Of a stretch of DNA of 12,399 bases, positions 198 to 11,365 are shown in pieces (position 1 is the stretch's first letter; every line of letters begins with the position of its first letter). The translations under genes and the position numbers were made by a program. The notes under the pieces were generated by a model. It was not told where the DNA came from. It saw only the letters and a program-made list of their open reading frames with translations, and searched no databases. The stretch lies in UHGV virus genome UHGV-1779463; one strand, given 5' to 3'. This DNA comes from a virus.

Positions 198-824
198 TTA
201 TTCTGATTTTACGACTGACAGCTCACTTTTTATACGGTAGTAAGTCGCTCGGCTGATTCCTGCTGCCTTCATGATGAGTTCAGGTTTTACTCCTTGCTCC
301 AACATCTCTCTAACGATCTCTCGGGCTTCCTGATTTTTCTCCCTGCCAATGTATATTCCTTCGCTTTTAGCTCGCTCAATGCCTTGCTGTTGGCGTTTAC
401 GACGTGTTTCGTAATCCTGCCGTGCCATTGTGGCAAGGATATCAATCAACATGGCATTTACGGCTCTCAGGATGCCGCTGGTTAGGTCATTGCCTGCCAT
501 CTCGACCATCTGCCAGCTCGTTGGTAAATCCATTGATACGATGATTAACCCTTTTCGGTTGAGCGTATCTTTCAGTTCGACCCATGCGCTATGTTCTAGG
601 CGACTCAGACGATCTATAGCTTCCACTAGCAACAGATCGCCGGACTGGGCTTCAGACAATAGCCGCATAAGCTCTACGCGCTCAAGCTTCGCCCCGCTAG
701 CATTTTCTATATACTCTCCTGCAATCTGCCAGCCTTTTGATTTTGAAAATTCACGTAGGCTGGTAAGTGCTCGATCAGCGTGTTGCCCCTCAGTTGATGC
801 TCGGCAGTAAATTCTAACGTTCAT
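198..824 (-). CDS. Serine recombinase (resolvase/invertase family) with C-terminal HTH
   Basis: 208-aa ORF. N-terminal YCRASTEGQ matches the catalytic-serine motif of small serine recombinases; LLVEAIDRLSR matches the conserved D-R-L-x-R segment; C-terminal GISRATYYRI is HTH-like. Start has a weak GAGA Shine-Dalgarno; stop TAA at 198-200. Confidence 0.9.
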   Translation of the reverse strand: MNVRIYCRASTEGQHADRALTSLREFSKSKGWQIAGEYIENASGAKLERVELMRLLSEAQSGDLLLVEAIDRLSRLEHSAWVELKDTLNRKGLIIVSMDLPTSWQMVEMAGNDLTSGILRAVNAMLIDILATMARQDYETRRKRQQQGIERAKSEGIYIGREKNQEAREIVREMLEQGVKPELIMKAAGISRATYYRIKSELSVVKSE

Positions 825-1187: not shown

Positions 1188-1394
1188 ATGGAAAAGACAC
1201 TGAAAGAGTTGCGTGAATGGTTGTTACTATCCCCTGGTTATCCCGAAAGCAATCTCGATCTGGAAAGATGGGGATATGATGACTACGCCATTATCGGTAA
1301 TGTAGGTGATGCTGAGGCTATGCTGGGTTTGCCTCCAGATTGCCTGGAGATGGATAAGTCGCAGATTGTTTTCGACACTAGCGATCTTGAATAG
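1188..1394 (+). CDS. Hypothetical small protein (about 68 aa); start uncertain (ATG 1188, or TTG 1182 as in the ORF track)
   Basis: Protein-like composition (MEKTLKELREWLLL...), unlike the overlapping W/C-rich ORF 1306-1566. Weak ribosome-binding site; G+C similar to the backbone rather than the cargo. Confidence 0.35.
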   Translation: MEKTLKELREWLLLSPGYPESNLDLERWGYDDYAIIGNVGDAEAMLGLPPDCLEMDKSQIVFDTSDLE

Positions 1395-1803
1395 CCTAAA
1401 TCATCAATATACACCCCTCTGGGATGTGTTTACATGGTCGGATAAGACAAAATATGAGTATTCGCATCCAGTTGACTACCCATTTGCATGTTGCTTGACC
1501 ATCTTCAGTAACATATGCAGAAGGGTGCGGGCAACCTTAAGCGAGAAGCGGATCTATCAGTCCTAAAGTGCAAAAGGGCGATCTAGTCACATTGAGACAT
1601 TAATTACATTAGGGTATGTTAAGCCCATTGGCGGGCACTATGATGGGTTCAAGTAGGTAATCATCATTTAATGGACTAGTCCTATATAGCCAGAACACAG
1701 ATAGCAAGTTCAGACACCATCTTTTGTACCTCGAAAACTCAAAAAGGATGGGTCAGTTTTAGTCGGCGACAACAGGTTTAAATAAGCAATTTAAGGGGGG
1801 GAT

Positions 1804-2133
1804 ATGGATTTTTTAACAAGTACTCTGCTATCAGGAATACTCTATGATGGGTTTAAGAACGGCGTTGCAATAACTACAGGTTTCTTGAAAGAAAAGCTAC
1901 ATGGATGGATTGTTGACGATACTTTATTGGAGACTTTAGCTTATAAAGTAAATACTCTTGAGCTTAAGGATTATGGAGAGCATGTTATCGAGCGAAAATT
2001 GAACGAATCATCAGAAATACAGCAAATTTTAAAACTGATTCAGCCTGAGCAAAACACGAATATTGGGTCAGTGACTCAGAATCACAGTGGTTCTGGTGAT
2101 AACATTATTGGAAACAAAAATATATACAAATAG
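1804..2133 (+). CDS. Small protein (109 aa) with a hydrophobic N-terminal segment and a C-terminal motif HSGSGDNIIGNKNIYK shared with the downstream gene
   Basis: Strong Shine-Dalgarno (aaggggggg) 3-5 nt upstream of the ATG. AT-rich like the downstream large ORF. The C-terminal motif is repeated at the N-terminus of ORF 2146-5430 with many synonymous nucleotide differences, implying protein-level conservation. Confidence 0.7.
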   Translation: MDFLTSTLLSGILYDGFKNGVAITTGFLKEKLHGWIVDDTLLETLAYKVNTLELKDYGEHVIERKLNESSEIQQILKLIQPEQNTNIGSVTQNHSGSGDNIIGNKNIYK

Positions 2134-2145
2134 AAGAAATGGACG

Positions 2146-5100
2146 ATGATGGTAGATCAAATACACAGTGGCGTAGGTGACAATATCATAGGTGATAAAT
2201 ACGAATATATAATTCGTAGTATTAAATCTAGGGATCTGCGGACTGTTATAGACAGTATAATGAGAGATATTTGCTATAGAGAATTAGGCAGAGTTCGTGA
2301 AAAGCTAGACGTTCTTAATAATATTCATTCATTAGAAAATGATGTATATCTACTATTGAATGCTTTGAATGTAAAGCTTGAGTTGGTAAAAGGCTCGATA
2401 TCATCATCAAAAAATGATCTTCTAAAATTGCTACAGAACAATGACCTCCCTGGTGATGTTCGTGAGGTCATTACATCTATATTGATCGATTTGGAATCGA
2501 GAACCTCTGAAGAGTTAGCTAAAAAAAGATATTCAGATTTAAAAATAGATGGGTTCTATCTCAAAGAGGTGTTCTTTGAGCGATTAGCCTCAATGGAAGA
2601 GCTATCTAAAAGCTATCATAACACAGAGGTTTATGATTTATCCGAGCAAGAGTTAACTGGATTAGTTCGCGGTGCTTTAAGAGTCCAAGATTTTGTTTTT
2701 GCGTTTGAACTGGCTCAGAATCTGGATAAGTATTATTCATCCAATAATTCAAGGATTCTTCGGCTATACACTGAAACCTGTTTACTCATAACTCGAAACC
2801 AACGTAATCATTATGTTTCACTTAGTAAACAGGAAAAAGATAATGTTGACCGGTTAATAATCCAATTACTAGCTGATATTGATGACGGAAAAGATGATAG
2901 ATATATCGCTGTTTTAACCAATTTGCTTAAACTTACCTATTTTTCAGATAGTCGACTTTATAATTTAGGAAAGTTGCATATTGATAAAGTTAGGGAGATA
3001 GACTCCTTTTCTGCGGAGTATCTAGAGCAGTCCTCAATAGGAATGAGCACTCCCGATATTAAATTTGAATTAGTATCTGATGTTTTGGATTTGGAAAAGT
3101 TTTCATTTCTTATTTTTGCTATTGAGAATAATCAGATGAAAGCTAAAGACGTAAATAACTGGATAGACAATGGAGGGATAATTGAAACAGGAGATGATTA
3201 TATTAATTCCTTCTTGAACTTGTACCTTAGGGCGCTAGTATGTTCGGTTGACGATAAGAATGAAATCCAACTGCTGGATAAAAAAGCGCAAGATTTTTTA
3301 GAATTAGATTCTAAAAAGTTTATGCTAATAAACCCTGCGAACATATTAAACTTATGCGATAAATTTATTTTATGTAATTTACCATTGAACGCGGTTAATT
3401 ATCTCACCCCATTGTTATCTGATGAAGCTTGGGTATCTCCGATTTTCGAATGTTATCTTAACGCTCTATTTCTCAGTGATAAGATTGATTTATTTTTAAA
3501 TAAAATAAAGCACTTAGAACCATGCGATAAAACAGAGCTAATTTATTTAAGAGAAGCCCAAGTGTACGACCGATTAGATGAATATGAGCTATCAATAAAA
3601 TCGATCAGATTTGCAATTGAAATTTCACCAAACAACCCTTATTCCTGGTACTTATTGCTGCACACATCAAGAAAAAATGGGGGGGATGCGCAATTTCTTA
3701 AAGAAATTGTTTTTGAGATCCCAGAAGTTATTTTTTCTACCTACGATGAGTCAAAGATCACATTAGTTAATGAAATAGCGACTTATATTGATATACACAT
3801 TGCGGAGAGAGTGCTTGTTGATTGGTTTGTCCAAAACCCAGTAAAAGTGGCAAAGCCTTTGACCCAGATTCACGCAAACTCATTGATAAATAGCCAAAAA
3901 GTTAATAGTAATCCACTTGTCCCTAATAAGTGTGGGGATGGTATTACATATTCTGATGGGTTTGAAACATTTACCCGAATTCTTGTACGTGACGTTGAGG
4001 CTAGTCATCCGTGCTTGTTGGAAATAGAGTCACCACTTGGACAGATTCTCGAGAATATGCAGGAAGGAGATTGTTCTGGTGACTTTACAATGATTAAGCG
4101 TGTGCCTCCTTACGTCGCAGTATTTAGGCAGGCTGTGGAGCTTCGCAGTAAAGGTAACGATGGTACTGATGTTTTCAGACAATTTTCTCTACCTCCTCAT
4201 GAAGAGGAATTCATTCCTTATTTTGAGAATATTCTAAAACGATATTCTACGAAAGATAAAGAAAGGGATGCAGTATTGCATACCCCCAATATACCTTTAA
4301 CGATGAAAGGCAATTTTACGGATCCTACAGACCCTGTAAGAGGGGCTATAACACATTTAACGTCAATTACATCAACCAAATATTTGGAGTTATTCAATAG
4401 TGGAGAAGAAACACCAAATAAGGTAATTATTGATGTGTATACGGCTGTTTATTTCTCATTAATGGGTTTTTCTTCAGCTGTAGTAGATTCGAATATAGAA
4501 ATAATTGTATGTAAATATACAAAGCAAGTATTGGAAGGGTGGATTGAAAATATTCTAAGAGAAGACTACATGTCTATAGGTGTATCTGATAAAGGACTTT
4601 ATAGAGTCACATCTGAAGATATTCGAAGGGATTCATGTGATTTTATTCATAATCTCCAGATATTACTTGAATTTGTAACAGTAGAACCGCTGAAACCAGC
4701 AGATACACCAGAGTTATTAGTTAAAGTAAGAGATTTGGTTGATTGGGCTGTTTACTCTACCTTCCAGCTTTCTATAGCAAATAGTATCCCATTGCTTAGC
4801 ATTGACCATTTGATGTGTGAATTAGCGTATAGTTCAGAGTATCCAACGGCAAATATGAATTCCTTTGTCATGAGGATTTTAAACTCTTTATCTTTGCCGG
4901 AAAGAAAAAAAAGCATTCAAACTAACTTATCTTCGGGTACACCTGTTCCAATTTTGTATGATGATATATTATATCTCAGCCGCTCAGCAGAAATTTCTGA
5001 TACATACTTAGTATTCAAGTTTATGGAAAAATATGGAGAAACCATTTCTGCAACAGGATCTTCTCTAAACTACCTAACTGCAATTGTGAGAAACGTAACA

Positions 5101-5430
5101 GTGATGGCTTGCATAGATGGAGCTATTTTAGCTGGTGGTAGAGCACACAATCCACGGTATGATGGATATGTTGAGCATGTTTTTAATTATTGCTGTCGCT
5201 CTGCAATAGTTAATCTGGATGGTGAAACTGCTGAACAAAGATTAGCATTACTAATCTATAATGTAATAGATATGCCTCGAAGAGTTCGTAAATACTTGGA
5301 ATTGATATCATTGCTGACTACTGAGTTCACAATAGGACATTTTCTGGATATTAAAGCATGTAATGAGAGCCTGGTTGCTTGTCAGAATGGTAAAAAAATA
5401 GATGAGCAAGGGAGTATTGAAGCAAGTTAA
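2146..5430 (+). CDS. Large uncharacterised protein (1094 aa), AT-rich, with TPR-like helical repeats and no P-loop; candidate sensor/effector of a defence-type system
   Basis: A 3.3-kb ORF with no antisense ORF of 60 aa or more. N-terminus IHSGVGDNIIGDKYEY repeats the C-terminal motif of the upstream ORF. TPR-like segment around ELIYLREAQVYDRLDEYELSIKSIRFAIEISPNNPYSWYLLL. No GxxxxGK[ST] found on manual scan. Weak ribosome-binding site; starts 12 nt after the upstream stop in the same frame. Confidence 0.9.
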   Translation: MMVDQIHSGVGDNIIGDKYEYIIRSIKSRDLRTVIDSIMRDICYRELGRVREKLDVLNNIHSLENDVYLLLNALNVKLELVKGSISSSKNDLLKLLQNNDLPGDVREVITSILIDLESRTSEELAKKRYSDLKIDGFYLKEVFFERLASMEELSKSYHNTEVYDLSEQELTGLVRGALRVQDFVFAFELAQNLDKYYSSNNSRILRLYTETCLLITRNQRNHYVSLSKQEKDNVDRLIIQLLADIDDGKDDRYIAVLTNLLKLTYFSDSRLYNLGKLHIDKVREIDSFSAEYLEQSSIGMSTPDIKFELVSDVLDLEKFSFLIFAIENNQMKAKDVNNWIDNGGIIETGDDYINSFLNLYLRALVCSVDDKNEIQLLDKKAQDFLELDSKKFMLINPANILNLCDKFILCNLPLNAVNYLTPLLSDEAWVSPIFECYLNALFLSDKIDLFLNKIKHLEPCDKTELIYLREAQVYDRLDEYELSIKSIRFAIEISPNNPYSWYLLLHTSRKNGGDAQFLKEIVFEIPEVIFSTYDESKITLVNEIATYIDIHIAERVLVDWFVQNPVKVAKPLTQIHANSLINSQKVNSNPLVPNKCGDGITYSDGFETFTRILVRDVEASHPCLLEIESPLGQILENMQEGDCSGDFTMIKRVPPYVAVFRQAVELRSKGNDGTDVFRQFSLPPHEEEFIPYFENILKRYSTKDKERDAVLHTPNIPLTMKGNFTDPTDPVRGAITHLTSITSTKYLELFNSGEETPNKVIIDVYTAVYFSLMGFSSAVVDSNIEIIVCKYTKQVLEGWIENILREDYMSIGVSDKGLYRVTSEDIRRDSCDFIHNLQILLEFVTVEPLKPADTPELLVKVRDLVDWAVYSTFQLSIANSIPLLSIDHLMCELAYSSEYPTANMNSFVMRILNSLSLPERKKSIQTNLSSGTPVPILYDDILYLSRSAEISDTYLVFKFMEKYGETISATGSSLNYLTAIVRNVTVMACIDGAILAGGRAHNPRYDGYVEHVFNYCCRSAIVNLDGETAEQRLALLIYNVIDMPRRVRKYLELISLLTTEFTIGHFLDIKACNESLVACQNGKKIDEQGSIEAS

Positions 5431-5506
5431 TCATTGTCAGATGAACTATTATAGTGATTGGATTTAGAACAATCAAAAATATAAATTGGTACAAGCTGTG
5501 TCCCTT

Positions 5507-5537
5507 AACCAATGATGTGACCTGCTCGTCATTGGTT
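5507..5537 (+). terminator. Hairpin downstream of the large ORF (9-bp stem aaccaatga/tcattggtt, 13-nt loop); weak terminator candidate
   Basis: Exact 9-bp inverted repeat about 80 bp after the stop at 5430, followed by tttattcc. The stem is AT-rich and the loop long, so confidence is low. Confidence 0.25.
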
Positions 5538-6020
5538 TATTCCTAACGTCCGCTTTAGGCACAGCCGACTGCCAGGTACTGCCAGGTAAGGTATCAATAT
5601 CGCCCGTCTGACCTGAGGATCATCATTGGATTTATTTTTGGGATGGTTAAGTAACATGTTAAAGGAAACTAACTCAGGTACAATTATGCAAAAAATTGCT
5701 TCTATGTGGTTTAAATTCACGACTGAGATTTCTACGTGAATTCAACCTAAGAAATACCGGTAAAATCGCTTATAAAGTTGATGTTATGTTGATGGTTTTT
5801 TTCTGGGGTTTTGATTGCCAGATATCTCTATTGGATTGTTTTTTATGTAATTAATGATGAGCTTAAGCGATGCCTGCTAACGTCAACACATTCTTATAAA
5901 GTGATTAATTTCTATAAGTACTTTTTCTAAAAAATTGATTTTTACGGATGGATGCCCATCAATGGAAAATCATTTTTTTCTAAGACTTTGATCTTTTATT
6001 GATGGTGTTAGTTGGGACTC

Positions 6021-6052
6021 CGGTCATCGAGCGCGATGCGCTCTTCTGACCG
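6021..6052. other. GC-rich interrupted stem-loop
   Basis: cggtca-tc-gagcgc-gat-gcgctc-ttc-tgaccg: outer 6-bp and inner 6-bp stems are exact reverse complements. Followed on the plus strand by tttcaatg. Lies in the convergent intergenic region, orientation ambiguous. Confidence 0.3.
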
Positions 6053-6183
6053 TTTCAATGGATAGGTTCGCCTTCTTGCGCCTCTCGCTGCGTTTGCCGC
6101 GCTCCGCGCTTTTGGCTGTTTGGCAGGCATATTTCTCTTATTATTGGTCGTTTTTTGCTCTGCCTTGTCACGATCTGTCACTA

Positions 6184-7236
6184 CTAGTAGTAATGGTCAT
6201 AACCTCCGCTTTCTCTTCTGGCTCTGGATGCTCTCACTCGTGCTTTTCTTAACATCCTTAACAGCGGGTGGGTTTGTACTTTGTTCGAGTTTATTATCTG
6301 TGAGGATAGTAACTCCCTACGCTCTGTCTCTGCCTCTTTGGTGACCGCTATCACTGATAAGTCCCAATCGTGCTTGCTAATTAACGGTGCTTCGAATGGG
6401 GCGATTGGTGAGCGATTTATGTCTTGCCGTTTTAATGTACGCTGTATCTGCCGCTTAGATTTGTAGTTGTCTTTCCTTGATGCCTGAACGGCTTTTAGTA
6501 TGCGTCTTACAGCATGAAAGCCAGTGACAGAAAGTGTTTCTTTTTTTATCTCATGCCGCGCCCAGCCATTCGAATAACCCCAAACGCTGGCATCTGACCA
6601 ATCATATAGGCTCTTGCTCGCCTCTCTATTAAAGTCATTTAACTTAGTTTCGGGCTTTGCCATGTAATCAATTTGTTTACCTATATGCTTGGTAGGCTCT
6701 GAATATTGCTGACCTTTCAAATCTAGATCCCACTGAGGAGGAACATTTGATGGGATTGCATTGTTTGCCAGTGTTACCCATTTGCTGACAATTTTGCCAG
6801 CTTGCCCATTAATGCTTCTTTCGTTCACCATGATTATTGCGTGTACATGCGGCTCTGACTGGTGTTGAGCCCACTCCATGACGTAAACCCACTGATTGCC
6901 TTTCGAAGTCAACCATCTGGTAAGTGCCTTTAACGCTTTGTTGAATTTCTCTGGCGTTGTTCCCTTAACGGGTCTGAAGGTAAAGGAGTAGGGGATACCA
7001 CTAGTTGATTCGACATCCAGAGTAAACAAAGCTCGCCTCATTGTACGCCATTTCTTCTTTGTCCAGGCTGGTGGTATGCAGTGGTTAGCCTTTGATGATT
7101 GGCGTTTATTCTCTGCCTTTAATTCATTACGTTTGTGCGTAACTGATTTCACATAAGCTAATGTGCGACCATTGATGTGATTGATTACGGCTTGTGATTT
7201 TGTGGATAGACTCGCGTCTTTATCGTATAATTCCAT
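6184..7236 (-). CDS. HUH-motif replication-initiator-like protein (rolling-circle Rep / inovirus Gp2-like)
   Basis: 350-aa ORF with three motifs in canonical Rep order and spacing: ALFTLDV (motif I-like), EPHVHAIIMV (His-hydrophobic-His) and IDYMAKP (YxxK catalytic tyrosine). No clear Shine-Dalgarno. Confidence 0.75.
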   Translation of the reverse strand: MELYDKDASLSTKSQAVINHINGRTLAYVKSVTHKRNELKAENKRQSSKANHCIPPAWTKKKWRTMRRALFTLDVESTSGIPYSFTFRPVKGTTPEKFNKALKALTRWLTSKGNQWVYVMEWAQHQSEPHVHAIIMVNERSINGQAGKIVSKWVTLANNAIPSNVPPQWDLDLKGQQYSEPTKHIGKQIDYMAKPETKLNDFNREASKSLYDWSDASVWGYSNGWARHEIKKETLSVTGFHAVRRILKAVQASRKDNYKSKRQIQRTLKRQDINRSPIAPFEAPLISKHDWDLSVIAVTKEAETERRELLSSQIINSNKVQTHPLLRMLRKARVRASRARRESGGYDHYY

Positions 7237-7265
7237 GTGTAAAGTTCATATATTTCAATTGCTTC

Positions 7266-7292
7266 AAAGCCGACTCTCGCAAAGTCGGCTTT
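7266..7292. other. 10-bp perfect inverted repeat hairpin (aaagccgact ... agtcggcttt) between the 128-aa ORF and the Rep-like gene
   Basis: Exact reverse-complement arms with a 7-nt loop. On the plus strand it is followed by ctgctttg; on the minus strand it sits between a stop at 7305 and a start at 7236. Could be a terminator/attenuator or operator. Confidence 0.35.
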
Positions 7293-7304
7293 CTGCTTTG
7301 TCAA

Positions 7305-7691
7305 TCACAGGTATTTGGTTTCAATACCCTTGTAAACAGTTCTAAGCGTGTCTTCAGGCACTTTACCCACCAGCCCACGCAACAACGACAACGTTATGTT
7401 TACCTTACGCAATGTCTTTACATATCTGGCGTTCGTCCTCCAGATCTTCAATGTTTCGTCTTTATCGCTGTGGTATGCTTCTAAATTGCGTTCTGTGACG
7501 TGATACGCCCCTGTTTTAAACTGCTCAACAGGAATTCCCCAATCGTTGCGTAACAGCGTTAAAACGCGACTACGTTCGTGATTTCCGGCTTTCCTTAATA
7601 TGTCGTCAAACTCTTTTGGGGTAAGCTTCCTGCCACTTAGTAGGATATCGCGTATATTCGCGGCGACCTGAGAGCGTGTAAGAGTGCTCAT
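7305..7691 (-). CDS. Hypothetical protein (128 aa)
   Basis: Strong Shine-Dalgarno (ggggggacgaa before the ATG); 4-nt overlap with the upstream HTH gene, suggesting translational coupling. No recognisable motif. Confidence 0.6.
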   Translation of the reverse strand: MSTLTRSQVAANIRDILLSGRKLTPKEFDDILRKAGNHERSRVLTLLRNDWGIPVEQFKTGAYHVTERNLEAYHSDKDETLKIWRTNARYVKTLRKVNITLSLLRGLVGKVPEDTLRTVYKGIETKYL

Positions 7692-8595: not shown

Positions 8596-9307
8596 CGTAC
8601 TTATCCAAAGCGTTCGTTAGCAATCTCCGAAATGTATCTGGGTGGGTATCGCTGTCTTCATCGTTCCCGAATATTATGTTGTTTTCTATTACTTGGGCAC
8701 TAACCCTATTGATACTAAGGTTTCCTCCACTATGGAAATCTTTGCTTGATTCAAATAAGGCAATCGCCATTCCGGCGATCATCTTTAAAGCCGTATCTTT
8801 TCCTCTCCAGTTTTGTTCTCTTTCTACTTTTTTTGACAGTGCTCCAATTTCTGGTTCGTTATCTGGAACATTCATATCCAGTTCTGGAAAGAAGTTCACA
8901 ACCTCGGATCGCTTGAAATAAAACGAATCGTAAGACCCATACCAATCATCCTCATCATCGTGATATAAAAAGTCTTCTCCTTTCCTAACGTTGAAAGTCC
9001 CTTCTTCCCCCGGTATCGGGCTCTCCCTGTATTCATGCCCCATAGCCAGAAGACCTAAAAACTCCACACACTGCTTTTCAAAGTCTTCATTTGTCGTAAA
9101 ACCAGATACCCAATCGAACTGATAAAAGCCCAGCCCCCCTAAAGTATCTGGTTTAGTCTTGCTCAATCTGTAGTTACTTAAGATAGCGGCAGCTATCATT
9201 CTTTCATTTTCATTGTTTAGTCTTGCCAGTTCGCTGATCAGATTACCAAACCAGATTTTATCTTCTGACTCGTTATAAAACGCATCTAGTCCTGTCATCT
9301 TAGTCAC
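8552..9307 (-). CDS. Hypothetical protein (251 aa), translationally coupled to the integrase
   Basis: Long ORF. Probable GTG start at 9305-9307 with Shine-Dalgarno gaaggagaa, overlapping the integrase stop by 8 nt (alternative ATG at 9296-9298). Acidic, aromatic-rich sequence with no recognisable motif. Confidence 0.65.
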   Translation of the reverse strand: MTKMTGLDAFYNESEDKIWFGNLISELARLNNENERMIAAAILSNYRLSKTKPDTLGGLGFYQFDWVSGFTTNEDFEKQCVEFLGLLAMGHEYRESPIPGEEGTFNVRKGEDFLYHDDEDDWYGSYDSFYFKRSEVVNFFPELDMNVPDNEPEIGALSKKVEREQNWRGKDTALKMIAGMAIALFESSKDFHSGGNLSINRVSAQVIENNIIFGNDEDSDTHPDTFRRLLTNALDKYAPKFKNKATKKRPK

Positions 9308-10622
9308 GGCGTGTTCTCCTTCCGAACTCGTAAGGGCTTATGTGTATTTCTCGATTGGCGTCCAGATAATCTGCCCACCATTGAAGCATTAGTTTGCGCT
9401 CTTCTAAGTAATCAGCCTTGTGCTTGTAGGCTCTTTTAACGTCTTTATATTCTTTGTGGCTCATCTGGCGCTCTACTGCGTCCTCCTGCCACAAACCGGA
9501 CTCCATCAGGGAACTACAGGCTGTGGCACGGAATCCATGTCCAGTTACGTCCTCTTGCGTGTTATAGCCCATTAAGCGTAATGCCTTGTTTACCGTGTTT
9601 TCACTCATCACGCCTTTGGTGTTTCTTTCATTCGGAAACACAACATCGTAGCTTCCGCTTAGTTCTCTCAACTGCTTTACAATAGAAACAGCCTGACGGC
9701 TAAGAAGCACGATATGTTCGTCTTTTCCCGTCTTTGTGCCACGGGTGGAAAACCTCACACCATCGATAGGCTCTCTTTTTTTAGGGATAATCCACTCAGC
9801 CCGATCAAGGTCAAACTCTTTCCAACGGGCAAACCTTAACTCGCTTGAACGAACAAAGGTCAACATGGTTAGCTCAATGGCAAGGCGGGTAAGAGGATTA
9901 CCTTTAAAGCTGCCCAATCGAGTGAAAAAGTCTGGTAAATCTCTGGGATGTAGTGCGGCATGATGCTTAGTTTCATATTGCATTAACCGGACATCGAGAT
10001 CATTCGTGATGATTTCTGTCTTAATGCCGCTCAGACGGGCGCTATGTATGATGTCCTTAACTCGTTGTTTAAGTCGGTTGGCTGTATCGTGTTTCCCGGC
10101 GTCATCTACCTTCTTAAACAAAGGTAAAATTGTCATCGCCTCCAGTTTGCGAATATCCGAAGTGCCAATGTGAGGGAAAATATACATTTCAAGGCTTCTA
10201 AGTACGCGTTTTCGGTGGGCTTCGTTCCACATCTGGTGGCTTTCAACCCATTGACGTCCTATTGTCTCAAAAGTGAATGCACCTTTTTCTTCTGCTTTTG
10301 CTGCTCTTTGCTCTGCTTTGGGATCTATCCCCTTGACTAACAACTTTTTGGCGTTGTCTCGTTTTTCTCTGGCGTCTTGTAAGCTAATGGTTGGATAAGC
10401 CAGTTTGCTAGCCGGGTTTAAGGTGATACCGATCGCCGCAACATTGATGATGGCGTTCTGTGCGCTGGTTGGATTTGCCAGTGCTGTTTTAGCCAGGTAA
10501 TCGTTTTTCTGGAAATACTGAATTGCAAACTGGCTTTCCTTAGCCCATGTCACCGTCTGTTCAGTCAATGCTCCGCAGAATAACTGCTCCTGCTGTTTAA
10601 CGAATTCAACGATATTGCTCAT
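9300..10622 (-). CDS. int: Tyrosine recombinase / phage integrase (P4-like family) with a non-canonical N-terminal ~75 aa
   Basis: C-terminal catalytic signatures are present: VRSSELR (box I Arg), HGFRATACS (H-x-x-R), and RAYKHKADYLEERKLMLQWWADYLD (catalytic Tyr and the MxQ-WADYLD hallmark). The N-terminal arm-binding region is replaced by unrelated sequence. Shine-Dalgarno GGAG 8 nt upstream; ATGA overlap with the upstream ORF. Confidence 0.9.
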   Translation of the reverse strand: MSNIVEFVKQQEQLFCGALTEQTVTWAKESQFAIQYFQKNDYLAKTALANPTSAQNAIINVAAIGITLNPASKLAYPTISLQDAREKRDNAKKLLVKGIDPKAEQRAAKAEEKGAFTFETIGRQWVESHQMWNEAHRKRVLRSLEMYIFPHIGTSDIRKLEAMTILPLFKKVDDAGKHDTANRLKQRVKDIIHSARLSGIKTEIITNDLDVRLMQYETKHHAALHPRDLPDFFTRLGSFKGNPLTRLAIELTMLTFVRSSELRFARWKEFDLDRAEWIIPKKREPIDGVRFSTRGTKTGKDEHIVLLSRQAVSIVKQLRELSGSYDVVFPNERNTKGVMSENTVNKALRLMGYNTQEDVTGHGFRATACSSLMESGLWQEDAVERQMSHKEYKDVKRAYKHKADYLEERKLMLQWWADYLDANREIHISPYEFGRRTRRD

Positions 10623-11011: not shown

Positions 11012-11182
11012 TCATGGACGGCCTTGTTGTTTCAAAATATCCCAAAGCTTTTCGAGCAAACTTTTCATTCTTGGTTGTTTAAAGTCTGCTCCGGTTAAAA
11101 TATTTTTTCGTGAATGCTGTACCGATAAAATCGGGTTGAAAGGGCGAACCGATGCCGCCCCTGCAATAGCGAACTGTTGCAT
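11012..11182 (-). CDS. Hypothetical small protein (56 aa from the internal ATG; the ORF track extends it to 11287)
   Basis: The internal ATG at 11180-11182 is preceded by a strong Shine-Dalgarno (GGAG about 7 nt upstream). The longer 91-aa form begins with a Cys-rich, hydrophobic stretch and has no ribosome-binding site. Confidence 0.45.
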   Translation of the reverse strand: MQQFAIAGAASVRPFNPILSVQHSRKNILTGADFKQPRMKSLLEKLWDILKQQGRP

Positions 11183-11365
11183 AGGATGCTCCTTCTGTTT
11201 GATTGCATAACGAAAACGCCTCGAGTGAAGCGTTATTGGTATGCATATAAAAAGGCCCTCACACTGGAGGGCAAAGAAGATTTCCAATAATCAGAACAAG
11301 TCGGCTCCTGTTTAGTTACGAGCGACATTGCTCACATAGCAGACTCGCAAATCTACTATAGGTGC

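What the first reader, a model, noticed from the sequence alone, without database searches (positions are those of the whole stretch)
2131..2148. Single in-frame TAG separates the 109-aa and 1094-aa ORFs
1804 and 2146 are in the same frame (342 nt apart), and the only stop between them is TAG at 2131-2133, followed 12 nt later by ATG-ATG with a weak ribosome-binding site. The upstream ORF has a very strong one. This could be termination-reinitiation coupling, a split form of a single-chain protein (fused all-in-one variants exist in amyloid-signalling systems), or a nonsense mutation. Same-frame placement alone has a one-in-three chance expectation.
Basis: seen in the sequence. Interest (0 to 1): 0.5.

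Follow-up and report, generated by a model that had tools for sequence, protein, structure and literature searches.

The report
Ordinary gene boundary in Bab/Agp operon
The in-frame TAG is the normal stop codon between two separate genes of an already characterised E. coli anti-phage system (Bab/Agp, also called GAPS6), and comparison with 79 related loci shows that the shared reading frame is inherited by descent, not selected.

Summary
ORF1 (1804-2133) ends at TAG 2131-2133, ATG-ATG follows at 2146-2151, both ORFs share a frame, and TAG is the only stop between them.

The two ORFs are Bab (109 aa) and Agp (1093 or 1094 aa). This is the published amyloid-signalling abortive-infection system of E. 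coli ECOR25, annotated in RefSeq as GapS6a/GapS6b. ORF1 residues 1-84 are 100% identical to PDB 9h9v. The TAG lies between the two copies of the shared BASS11 amyloid motif.

No fused Bab-Agp protein appears among 75 Bab clusters, 61 Agp clusters, 150 Agp representatives or 88 homologous loci. Across 79 unique junctions the relative frames 0/1/2 number 39/20/20, with at least 19 frame switches on the tree. Near relatives differ by a single base. A tree-based model puts the equilibrium frequency of frame 0 at 0.32 (p = 0.93 against one third).

What is conserved is tight spacing: the stop-to-start distance runs from -8 to +27 nt. Bab also tends to have the stronger ribosome-binding site. This fits translational coupling of an abundant effector to a scarce sensor. 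Read-through, a nonsense mutation and sequencing error are all rejected.

Low interest; already known.

The parts
1592..1620 (+). Candidate sigma-70 promoter of the bab-agp operon (TTGAGA-17-TATGTT). Weak evidence only.
   Evidence: Consensus scan. The scan found fewer sites than shuffled sequence gives, so this is only a candidate. The published functional construct carried 336 bp upstream of bab, a stretch that includes this site.
1793..1801 (+). Strong Shine-Dalgarno sequence of bab (AAGGGGGGG).
   Evidence: Anti-SD duplex energy is -11.7 kcal/mol against a window background mean of -1.56.
1804..2133 (+). bab (gapS6a), 109 aa: a Bell / HetE-N helical cell-death effector domain plus a C-terminal amyloid motif.
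   Evidence: Pfam HetE-N PF20701, E = 3.5e-33. NCBIfam GapS6a, 120 bits against a cut-off of 90. Residues 1-84 are 100% identical to PDB 9h9v 'Babybass'. G11 and N100 are present.
2059..2127 (+). BASS11 amyloid motif of Bab (residues 86-108; core HSGSGDNIIGNK).
   Evidence: Motif boundaries come from the preprint. Q92, H94, G96, S97, D99, N100 and K105 are invariant in 36 homologues.
2131..2133 (+). TAG stop codon of bab, the codon in the finding.
   Evidence: The corresponding Bab ORF ends at a stop codon in all 88 homologous loci.
2134..2148 (+). Intercistronic spacer (12 nt to ATG 2146, 15 nt to ATG 2149), with only a weak GGA at 2141-2143.
   Evidence: The surrounding RNA shows no special structure (z = -0.04).
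2146..5430 (+). agp (gapS6b), 1094 aa from ATG 2146 or 1093 aa from ATG 2149: the TPR - GreA/B-C - PIN sensor protein.
   Evidence: NCBIfam GapS6b, 1063.7 bits against a cut-off of 850. Pfam PIN-TPR-GreABC. Published residues N12, S628, L634 and D762 match under 2149 numbering.
2152..2223 (+). BASS11 amyloid motif of Agp (residues 2-25 in 2149 numbering; core HSGVGDNIIGDK).
   Evidence: Ten of twelve core residues are identical to the Bab copy. H6, G8 and G10 are conserved in 30 Agp homologues.
3541..3681 (+). Recognisable TPR repeats of Agp.
   Evidence: Weak Pfam TPR_8, TPR_1 and TPR_17 hits at aa 466-512. A profile of 30 homologues hits consensus TPR proteins in the PDB at profile positions about 465-535, E = 2.9e-48.
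4030..4050 (+). [quoted passage not shown]
   Evidence: Literature only (S628L and L634P abolish defence). The residues are present in the window. Sequence searches here did not detect the domain.
4426..4830 (+). PIN nuclease domain of Agp.
   Evidence: Pfam PF20698, E = 6.2e-16, aa 761-895. D762 is invariant in 30 homologues.

Best explanation
TAG 2131-2133 is the ordinary termination codon of bab. Bab is the first gene of the two-gene Bab/Agp (GAPS6) anti-phage operon. It is translated as a separate 109-aa pore-forming effector that carries a C-terminal BASS11 amyloid motif.

Agp starts 12-15 nt downstream, most likely at ATG 2149. It is a separate TPR-GreA/B-C-PIN sensor with the same motif at its N-terminus. 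On phage infection the Agp motif templates the Bab motif into an amyloid, and this activates cell death. That mechanism is shown experimentally in the literature, not here.

The two ORFs share a frame because the ancestor of this clade did. Only indels in a spacer of about 10 nt can change the relative frame. The shared frame has no function. The short spacer and the weak Agp ribosome-binding site behind a strongly translated bab probably couple Agp translation to Bab translation at a low ratio, giving much effector and little sensor. This last step is inferred, not shown.
For: Identity of the genes:
- NCBIfam GapS6a and GapS6b score above their curated cut-offs.
- Pfam finds HetE-N and PIN-TPR-GreABC.
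- RefSeq annotates two genes in 22 E. coli genomes.
- PDB 9h9v is 100% identical over Bab residues 1-84.
- All six published mutated residues are present.

Published function as two chains:
- Bab and Agp expressed separately are non-toxic.
- BASS11 assembly needs Agp but not full-length Bab.
- The system works in MG1655 with its native promoter.

No fusion:
- All 75 Bab clusters are 89-150 aa.
- None of the 61 Agp clusters or 150 representatives carries HetE-N.
- All 88 loci have a stop at this position.

The frame is not selected:
- Among 79 unique junctions, frames 0/1/2 number 39/20/20, with at least 19 switches.
- L024 and L111 have a motif-to-motif distance (GDN codon of Bab to GDN codon of Agp) of 105 nt, L104 has 104, and L022, L110 and L112 have 106 nt. 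In the window's own clade L006 has 74 and L141-143 have 80, against 81 in the window.
- The Mk model gives a stationary frequency of 0.32 for frame 0 (LRT 0.007, p = 0.93). Neutral simulations reach 39 or more frame-0 tips in 21-59% of runs.
- The window-clade ancestor is frame 0 with likelihood 0.998.
- Extra in-frame stops occur in L003 (3), L071 (2) and L102 (3).
- All three stop codons occur among frame-0 loci.
- There is no RNA structure at the junction.

Coupling:
- The stop-to-start gap is -8 to +27 nt in all 79 junctions.
- Bab has the stronger SD in 54 junctions and the weaker in 20.
Against: Frame 0 is nominally over-represented at 49% of unique junctions, and the midpoint root is reconstructed as frame 0 (posterior 0.90).

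TAG itself is unusually conserved in the window's clade, at 16 of 17 junctions. The Agp stop codon in the same loci is mixed. I cannot explain this.

Translational coupling is inferred from geometry only. The SD comparison is not phylogenetically corrected. The tree is an NJ tree of concatenated proteins, and horizontal transfer or recombination could distort it.
Confidence: 0.9

Rival explanations
1. Programmed or leaky read-through of UAG yields a low-abundance single-chain Bab-Agp protein with two tandem BASS11 motifs. This protein would have a function, such as nucleating or restraining amyloid signalling.
For: The ORFs share a frame with a single stop. TAG is kept in 16 of 17 junctions of the window's clade, while the Agp stop codon varies. 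Marinomonas Agp naturally carries two tandem motif copies, so tandem motifs are tolerated.
Against: Forty of 79 unique junctions are out of frame, and there is no tree-corrected preference for frame 0. TAG is also kept in the frame-2 members of the clade (L006, L141-143). L003 and L071 have extra in-frame stops. Other frame-0 clades use TAA, the most efficient stop. There is no stimulatory RNA structure. The published system works in suppressor-free MG1655, and Bab and Agp behave as separate chains.
Confidence: 0.03
2. The TAG is a recent nonsense mutation, or a sequencing or assembly error, in what should be a single 1,200-aa gene.
For: Only the shared frame and single stop. All-in-one Agp relatives with other N-terminal domains exist.
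Against: The identical junction occurs in 22 complete E. coli genomes, E. albertii and a metagenome. All 88 homologous loci from many genera have a stop there and a start codon after it. No fused Bab-Agp exists in any protein search. The motif is present twice, once on each side, which is the signature of a two-protein signalling pair. Separate Bab was crystallised.
Confidence: 0.01
3. The shared frame is a relic. The two-gene pair arose long ago when a single-chain effector-motif-TGP protein was split by an in-frame stop, with duplication of the motif. The frame has since drifted in many lineages. This is compatible with the best explanation for the present-day function.
For: Frame 0 has posterior 0.90 at the midpoint root and is the Fitch root state. 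Most frame-0 loci have exactly one stop. All-in-one relatives exist, and P0132 keeps a degenerate motif (HDGTGDIVADKF) as a linker between a trypsin-like domain and the TGP core. Kaur et al. list a HetE-type effector among the 13 effector domains that replace the N-terminal EAD10 domain fused to this core.
Against: With at least 19 switches on the tree the root state is weakly determined, and it depends on midpoint rooting. The prior for frame 0 is already 1/3. No Bell-TGP fusion was recovered here. The two motif copies are not similar at the DNA level beyond what the protein requires.
Confidence: 0.12

Closest known systems
Bab/Agp amyloid-signalling abortive-infection system of E. coli ECOR25 (Ibarlosa et al., bioRxiv 10.1101/2024.11.07.622273; PDB 9h9v)
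   Same: It appears to be the same locus. The proteins are 109 and 1094 aa. Bab residues 1-84 are identical to the crystallised chain. All six published mutated residues are present. BASS11 sits at the Bab C-terminus and the Agp N-terminus. The pair lies in a prophage-borne defence island.
   Different: Nothing detectable. The preprint does not mention the stop codon, the frame or the spacer. Its residue numbering implies a start at the second ATG (2149), although it quotes 1094 aa.
GAPS6 (GapS6a/GapS6b) from Vibrio GMT islands (Mahata et al., bioRxiv 10.1101/2023.03.28.534373; NCBIfam NF047935 and NF047936)
   Same: It is the same two-gene family and was experimentally protective in E. coli. 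Both window proteins score above the curated cut-offs. Vibrio homologues have the same TAG, a 12-nt spacer and the same frame.
   Different: The Vibrio proteins are about 75% (a) and 63% (b) identical to the window proteins. They lie in GMT islands rather than a lambdoid prophage.
Fungal HET-S/NWD2 and bacterial Bell/NLR BASS gene pairs (Dyrka et al. 2020)
   Same: These are adjacent genes too. The effector carries a C-terminal amyloid motif and the receptor an N-terminal copy of it. Signalling works by amyloid templating.
   Different: [quoted passage not shown] The motif family is BASS11.
All-in-one TPR-GreA/B-C-PIN (TGP) proteins (Kaur et al. 2021, PMC8195603)
   Same: They share the TPR-GreA/B-C-PIN core. 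Close Agp relatives carry N-terminal trypsin-like, HNH-like, SMEK_N or unknown domains fused directly to it.
   Different: In the window the effector is a separate polypeptide linked through the shared motif. The fused relatives lack BASS11, or retain only a degenerate copy (P0132).
Translationally coupled operon genes in bacteria (termination-reinitiation)
   Same: The spacer is short or the genes overlap, and the downstream SD is weak behind a well-translated upstream gene.
   Different: Coupling has not been measured for this pair. BASS11 assembly is reported to occur without full-length Bab, so Agp can be made without intact Bab, at least in those constructs.

Membership tests
Bab/Agp = GAPS6 two-gene defence system | A small protein of about 110 aa with a Bell / HetE-N helical domain. 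| tested here: met
   Pfam PF20701, E = 3.5e-33. NCBIfam GapS6a, 120.3 bits against a cut-off of 90. 100% identity to PDB 9h9v.
Bab/Agp = GAPS6 two-gene defence system | A partner of about 1,090 aa with TPR repeats and the TGP-type PIN domain. | tested here: met
   NCBIfam GapS6b, 1063.7 bits against a cut-off of 850. PF20698, E = 6.2e-16. The TPR repeats are confirmed by a profile search against the PDB.
Bab/Agp = GAPS6 two-gene defence system | [quoted passage not shown] | tested here: inconclusive
   No sequence hit in Pfam or with a PDB profile. The published functional residues S628 and L634 are present, and L634 is at least 90% conserved. No fold comparison was run.
Bab/Agp = GAPS6 two-gene defence system | The BASS11 motif shared between the effector C-terminus and the sensor N-terminus, encoded by adjacent co-oriented genes. 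| tested here: met
   HSGSGDNIIGNK against HSGVGDNIIGDK in the window. The same pairing appears in 85 of the 88 homologous loci; in the other three the automated scan (pattern GD[NIY]) found no match at the Agp N-terminus: L036 has none, L114 and L116 carry the variants GDT and GDA.
Bab/Agp = GAPS6 two-gene defence system | The motif forms amyloid, and the system protects against phage by abortive infection. | not testable with these tools
   Shown experimentally for a Bab/Agp pair that matches the window wherever it could be compared, and for the Vibrio homologue.
Programmed stop-codon read-through | An in-frame downstream ORF conserved across orthologues. | tested here: not met
   Frames 0/1/2 number 39/20/20 in 79 junctions. 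The stationary frequency of frame 0 is 0.32, p = 0.93.
Programmed stop-codon read-through | A single leaky stop, with no further in-frame stops before the downstream coding region. | tested here: not met
   This holds in the window. However, L003, L071 and L102 have 2-3 in-frame stops, and TAA is the usual stop in other frame-0 clades.
Programmed stop-codon read-through | A stimulatory RNA structure or sequence context downstream of the stop. | tested here: not met
   The minimum free energy of 2090-2210 equals that of shuffled sequence (z = -0.04).
Pseudogene split by a nonsense mutation | Intact orthologues have a sense codon at this position and encode one fused protein. | tested here: not met
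   No fused Bab-Agp was found.
Translationally coupled gene pair | Stop and start overlap or lie within a few tens of nucleotides of each other, conserved across orthologues. | tested here: met
   The gap is -8 to +27 nt in all 79 junctions.
Translationally coupled gene pair | Downstream translation depends on upstream translation. | not testable with these tools
   This needs a reporter or an early-stop experiment. The weak Agp SD (-2.4 / -3.0 kcal/mol against -11.7 for Bab) is only suggestive.

The most novel reading that the evidence does not exclude
The in-frame, single-stop junction may be the ancestral state of the whole family (root posterior 0.90). If so, it is a footprint of how an amyloid-signalling gene pair is born: a single-chain effector-motif-sensor protein is split by an in-frame stop after duplication of the linker motif. 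A second, related possibility concerns the window's clade. There the unusually conserved TAG, which is read only by RF1, may be kept because slow termination at it sets the reinitiation rate and hence the Bab:Agp ratio.
Probability: 0.1. Interest if true: 0.4.

Novelty: already known. Interest (0 to 1): 0.1.

Why it matters
It matters little beyond careful annotation. The locus is a published, structurally and genetically characterised defence system, and the shared reading frame turns out to be neutral.

Three practical points follow:
- The two genes should stay annotated as separate.
- The Agp start is probably the second ATG (2149).
- Anyone cloning this operon in amber-suppressor strains (supE44/glnV44 is my own knowledge, not tested here) would produce a Bab-Agp fusion as an artefact, because the stop is TAG and in frame.

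The conserved tight spacing and the asymmetry in ribosome-binding sites give a testable idea about how the effector:sensor ratio is set.

Tried and rejected
- PADLOC models found nothing for either protein. That library dates from 2023 and predates GAPS6 and Bab/Agp, so this carries no weight.
- The plasmid collection holds no match.
- A distant blastn search in E. coli genomes found only the same 22 near-identical copies and no divergent E. coli junctions.
- The terminator scan found none in 1300-6200, and promoter-like sites were fewer than in shuffled sequence.
- RNA folding of the junction showed no structure.
- No tRNA gene lies in the window.
- A PDB profile search did not recover GreA/GreB, so the GreA/B-C domain rests on the literature.
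- I first read the raw excess of frame 0 (22 of 41 genome loci) as possibly meaningful. It disappeared once more loci were added and shared ancestry was modelled.
- The N-terminally extended Agp relatives were checked as possible Bab fusions. P0135 (1213 aa) and P0139 (1197 aa) have about the right size, but they carry unrelated N-terminal domains.
- A literature search for later work on BASS11 found only the one preprint.
Full report
**Observation.** The window reads as the first-stage reader described.
- An ORF of 109 codons starts at ATG 1804, behind a run AAGGGGGGG at 1793-1801, and ends at TAG 2131-2133.
- Twelve bases later comes ATG ATG (2146-2151), which opens an ORF that runs to 5430.
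- The two ORFs share a frame (342 nt apart), and the four intervening codons contain no stop.
- Duplex energies with the 3' end of 16S rRNA confirm the contrast in ribosome-binding sites: -11.7 kcal/mol for ORF1, -2.4 (ATG 2146) and -3.0 (ATG 2149) for ORF2, against a window background mean of -1.56.
- As a chance event this is unremarkable. A shared frame has probability 1/3, and four stop-free codons are expected with probability 0.78 at this composition.

**What the genes are.**
- ORF1 matches Pfam HetE-N (E = 3.5e-33) and NCBIfam GapS6a.
- ORF2 matches NCBIfam GapS6b (1063.7 bits, cut-off 850) and carries the PIN domain of the TPR-GreAB-C-PIN system plus TPR repeats.
- The stretch is at least 99% identical to 22 complete E. 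coli chromosomes. RefSeq annotates two genes there, gapS6a and gapS6b.
- GAPS6 is a two-gene anti-phage system first validated from Vibrio GMT islands.
- The pair is also Bab/Agp of E. coli ECOR25, described in the preprint 'Amyloid signaling in antiphage defense'.
- Bab (109 aa) is a Bell-type membrane-targeting cell-death effector. Agp (1094 aa) is a TPR-GreA/B-C-PIN sensor.
- Both carry a roughly 20-residue amyloid motif, BASS11, at the Bab C-terminus and the Agp N-terminus. Beta-breaker mutations in either copy (Bab N100P, Agp N12P) abolish resistance to T5.
- ORF1 residues 1-84 are 100% identical to the crystallised 'Babybass' chains of PDB 9h9v.
- All published mutated residues are present in the window: Bab G11 and N100, and Agp N12, S628, L634 and D762. 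The Agp numbers fit only if translation starts at the second ATG, 2149.
- The TAG of the finding therefore lies exactly between the two motif copies: ...HSGSGDNIIGNKNIYK* and M(M)VDQIHSGVGDNIIGDK...

**Is there ever a fused form?**
- A search of 5.8 billion proteins with Bab returned 75 clusters, all 89-150 aa.
- The same search with Agp returned 61 clusters, none with a HetE-N domain.
- An exhaustive HMMER search of 1.84 billion representatives found only 195 related clusters.
- The N-terminally extended ones were checked individually. P0132 carries a trypsin-like domain, P0139 an HNH-like Cys/His domain, P0169 a SMEK_N domain, and P0135 and P0140 an unknown domain of about 155 aa. None carries a Bell domain.
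- These are the 'all-in-one' TGP architectures described by Kaur et al.. They lack BASS11, except P0132, which keeps a degenerate copy as a linker.
- So single-chain relatives exist, but not as Bab-Agp. The motif pair goes with the two-protein arrangement.

**Junction geometry in homologous loci.** I fetched 142 loci with a Bab profile from genomes, metagenomes and viral contigs. Eighty-eight carry a Bab homologue followed by an Agp homologue, giving 79 distinct junction sequences.
- Every Bab ends in a BASS11 motif, and the Agp ORF begins with a recognisable copy in 85 of the 88 loci (no match in L036; variant GDT/GDA in L114 and L116).
- The relative frame of agp is 0 in 39 junctions, +1 in 20 and +2 in 20.
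- The distance between the GDN codons of the two motifs takes 12 different values in frame 0, 8 in frame 1 and 8 in frame 2.
- Very close relatives occupy all three frames: 105 nt in L024 and L111, 104 nt in L104, and 106 nt in L022, L110 and L112.
- In the window's own clade, L006 (74 nt) and the prophage copies L141-143 (80 nt) are out of frame relative to the usual 81 nt.
- Some frame-0 loci have two or three in-frame stops (L003, L071, L102).
- The stop codon is TAG, TAA or TGA depending on the clade.

**Correcting for shared ancestry.** I built a neighbour-joining tree of Bab plus the first 450 residues of Agp.
- Fitch parsimony needs at least 19 frame changes on it.
- A three-state Markov model with a free equilibrium frequency for frame 0 estimates 0.32. 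This is indistinguishable from 1/3 (LRT 0.007, p = 0.93).
- Neutral simulations on the same tree give 39 or more frame-0 tips in 21% of runs with a random root state, and in 59% with a frame-0 root.
- The ancestor of the window's clade is reconstructed as frame 0 (0.998). The midpoint root is frame 0 with posterior 0.90.
- The raw excess of frame 0 is thus explained by two large clades that inherited it.
- This is expected. Indels inside either coding region must be multiples of three, so only the spacer of about 10 nt can change the relative frame.

**What is conserved instead.**
- The distance from the Bab stop to the predicted Agp start lies between -8 and +27 nt in all 79 junctions. Classical overlaps (ATGA, GTGA, TAATG) occur in several lineages.
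- Bab has the stronger anti-SD pairing in 54 junctions and the weaker in 20, with means of -6.2 and -4.5 kcal/mol. This comparison is not phylogenetically corrected.
- The RNA around the junction folds no better than shuffled sequence (z = -0.04).
- Together these fit a conventional, translationally coupled operon in which a strongly translated effector precedes a weakly initiated sensor. Such an arrangement would give an excess of Bab over Agp, which suits a templating mechanism. This is inference. No experiment on coupling exists, and the preprint does not discuss the junction at all.

**Rivals.**
- Read-through to a Bab-Agp fusion is contradicted by four things: the lack of frame conservation, the extra stops in some relatives, the use of TAA in other clades, and the published behaviour of the two proteins as separate functional chains in suppressor-free MG1655.
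- A nonsense mutation or a sequencing error is excluded. The identical junction occurs in 22 genomes plus E. albertii and a metagenome, and a stop is universal across genera.
- An ancient fission origin remains possible but weakly supported (root state, P0132 linker motif). It would not change the present-day reading.

**One loose end.** In the window's clade the Bab stop is TAG in 16 of 17 junctions. L003 has TAA followed directly by TAG. The Agp stop in the same loci is TAA 9, TAG 5, TGA 1. Because TAG is also kept in the out-of-frame members, read-through does not explain it. It may belong to the purine-rich initiation region of agp, or reflect RF1-specific termination. I could not test either idea.

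**Verdict.** The shared frame is a neutral inherited trait. Novelty: already known. Interest is low.

Noticed in passing
window 2146-2151: The published Agp residue numbers (N12, S628, L634, D762) match ORF2 only when counted from the second ATG (2149), giving 1093 aa. That ATG aligns with the start of Vibrio homologues, and the weak GGA at 2141-2143 is better spaced for it. RefSeq and the preprint quote 1094 aa.
   Followed up: yes
window 2131-2133 and loci L003-L009, L065-L071, L141-L143: The Bab stop codon is TAG in 16 of 17 junctions of the window's clade, including the out-of-frame ones. The Agp stop in the same loci is TAA 9, TAG 5, TGA 1, and the operon is only 35% GC. This is unexplained.
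   Followed up: partly
L007 and L008 (Marinomonas), about 5334-5460; L016: The Agp N-terminus carries two tandem BASS11-like copies (IGDNVVGG...HTGSGDNVLGNK). L016 has a partial second copy. This recalls the two pseudo-repeats of HET-s.
   Followed up: no
L144 (E. coli Z1323CEC0014, NZ_CP148426) 4343-7626: In one of the 22 E. coli carriers agp is annotated as two CDS of 539 aa each. This is probably an inactivated copy. bab and the junction are intact.
   Followed up: partly
L145 2614-6561 (P0132); also P0135, P0139, P0140, P0169: These are single-chain Agp relatives with N-terminal trypsin-like, HNH-like, SMEK_N or unknown domains. P0132 retains a degenerate BASS11 (HDGTGDIVADKF, with the key N replaced) as a linker. 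It has no bab upstream, only a Lactamase_B/Apyc1-like gene.
   Followed up: partly
L014, L027, L088, L091, L103, L115: Here Bab-like genes are followed by partners that are not Agp-like at E <= 1e-3 (for example 938, 1239 and 690 aa) but still begin with a BASS11 motif. The relative frames are again mixed: 0, 2, 2, 1, 0, 1.
   Followed up: no
window 198-824 (-), 6184-7236 (-), 9300-10622 (-), 11012-11287 (-): The operon sits among mobile-element genes: a serine recombinase/resolvase, a rolling-circle Rep-like protein, a tyrosine integrase and a cIII-like lambdoid gene. This fits the reported location in a prophage defence hotspot. The region downstream of about 7900 differs from strain EcPF15.
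   Followed up: partly
window 1188-1394 (+): A small conserved hypothetical gene (68 aa, WP_000416087.1, phrog_35119) lies between the recombinase and bab. Its function is unknown.
   Followed up: no
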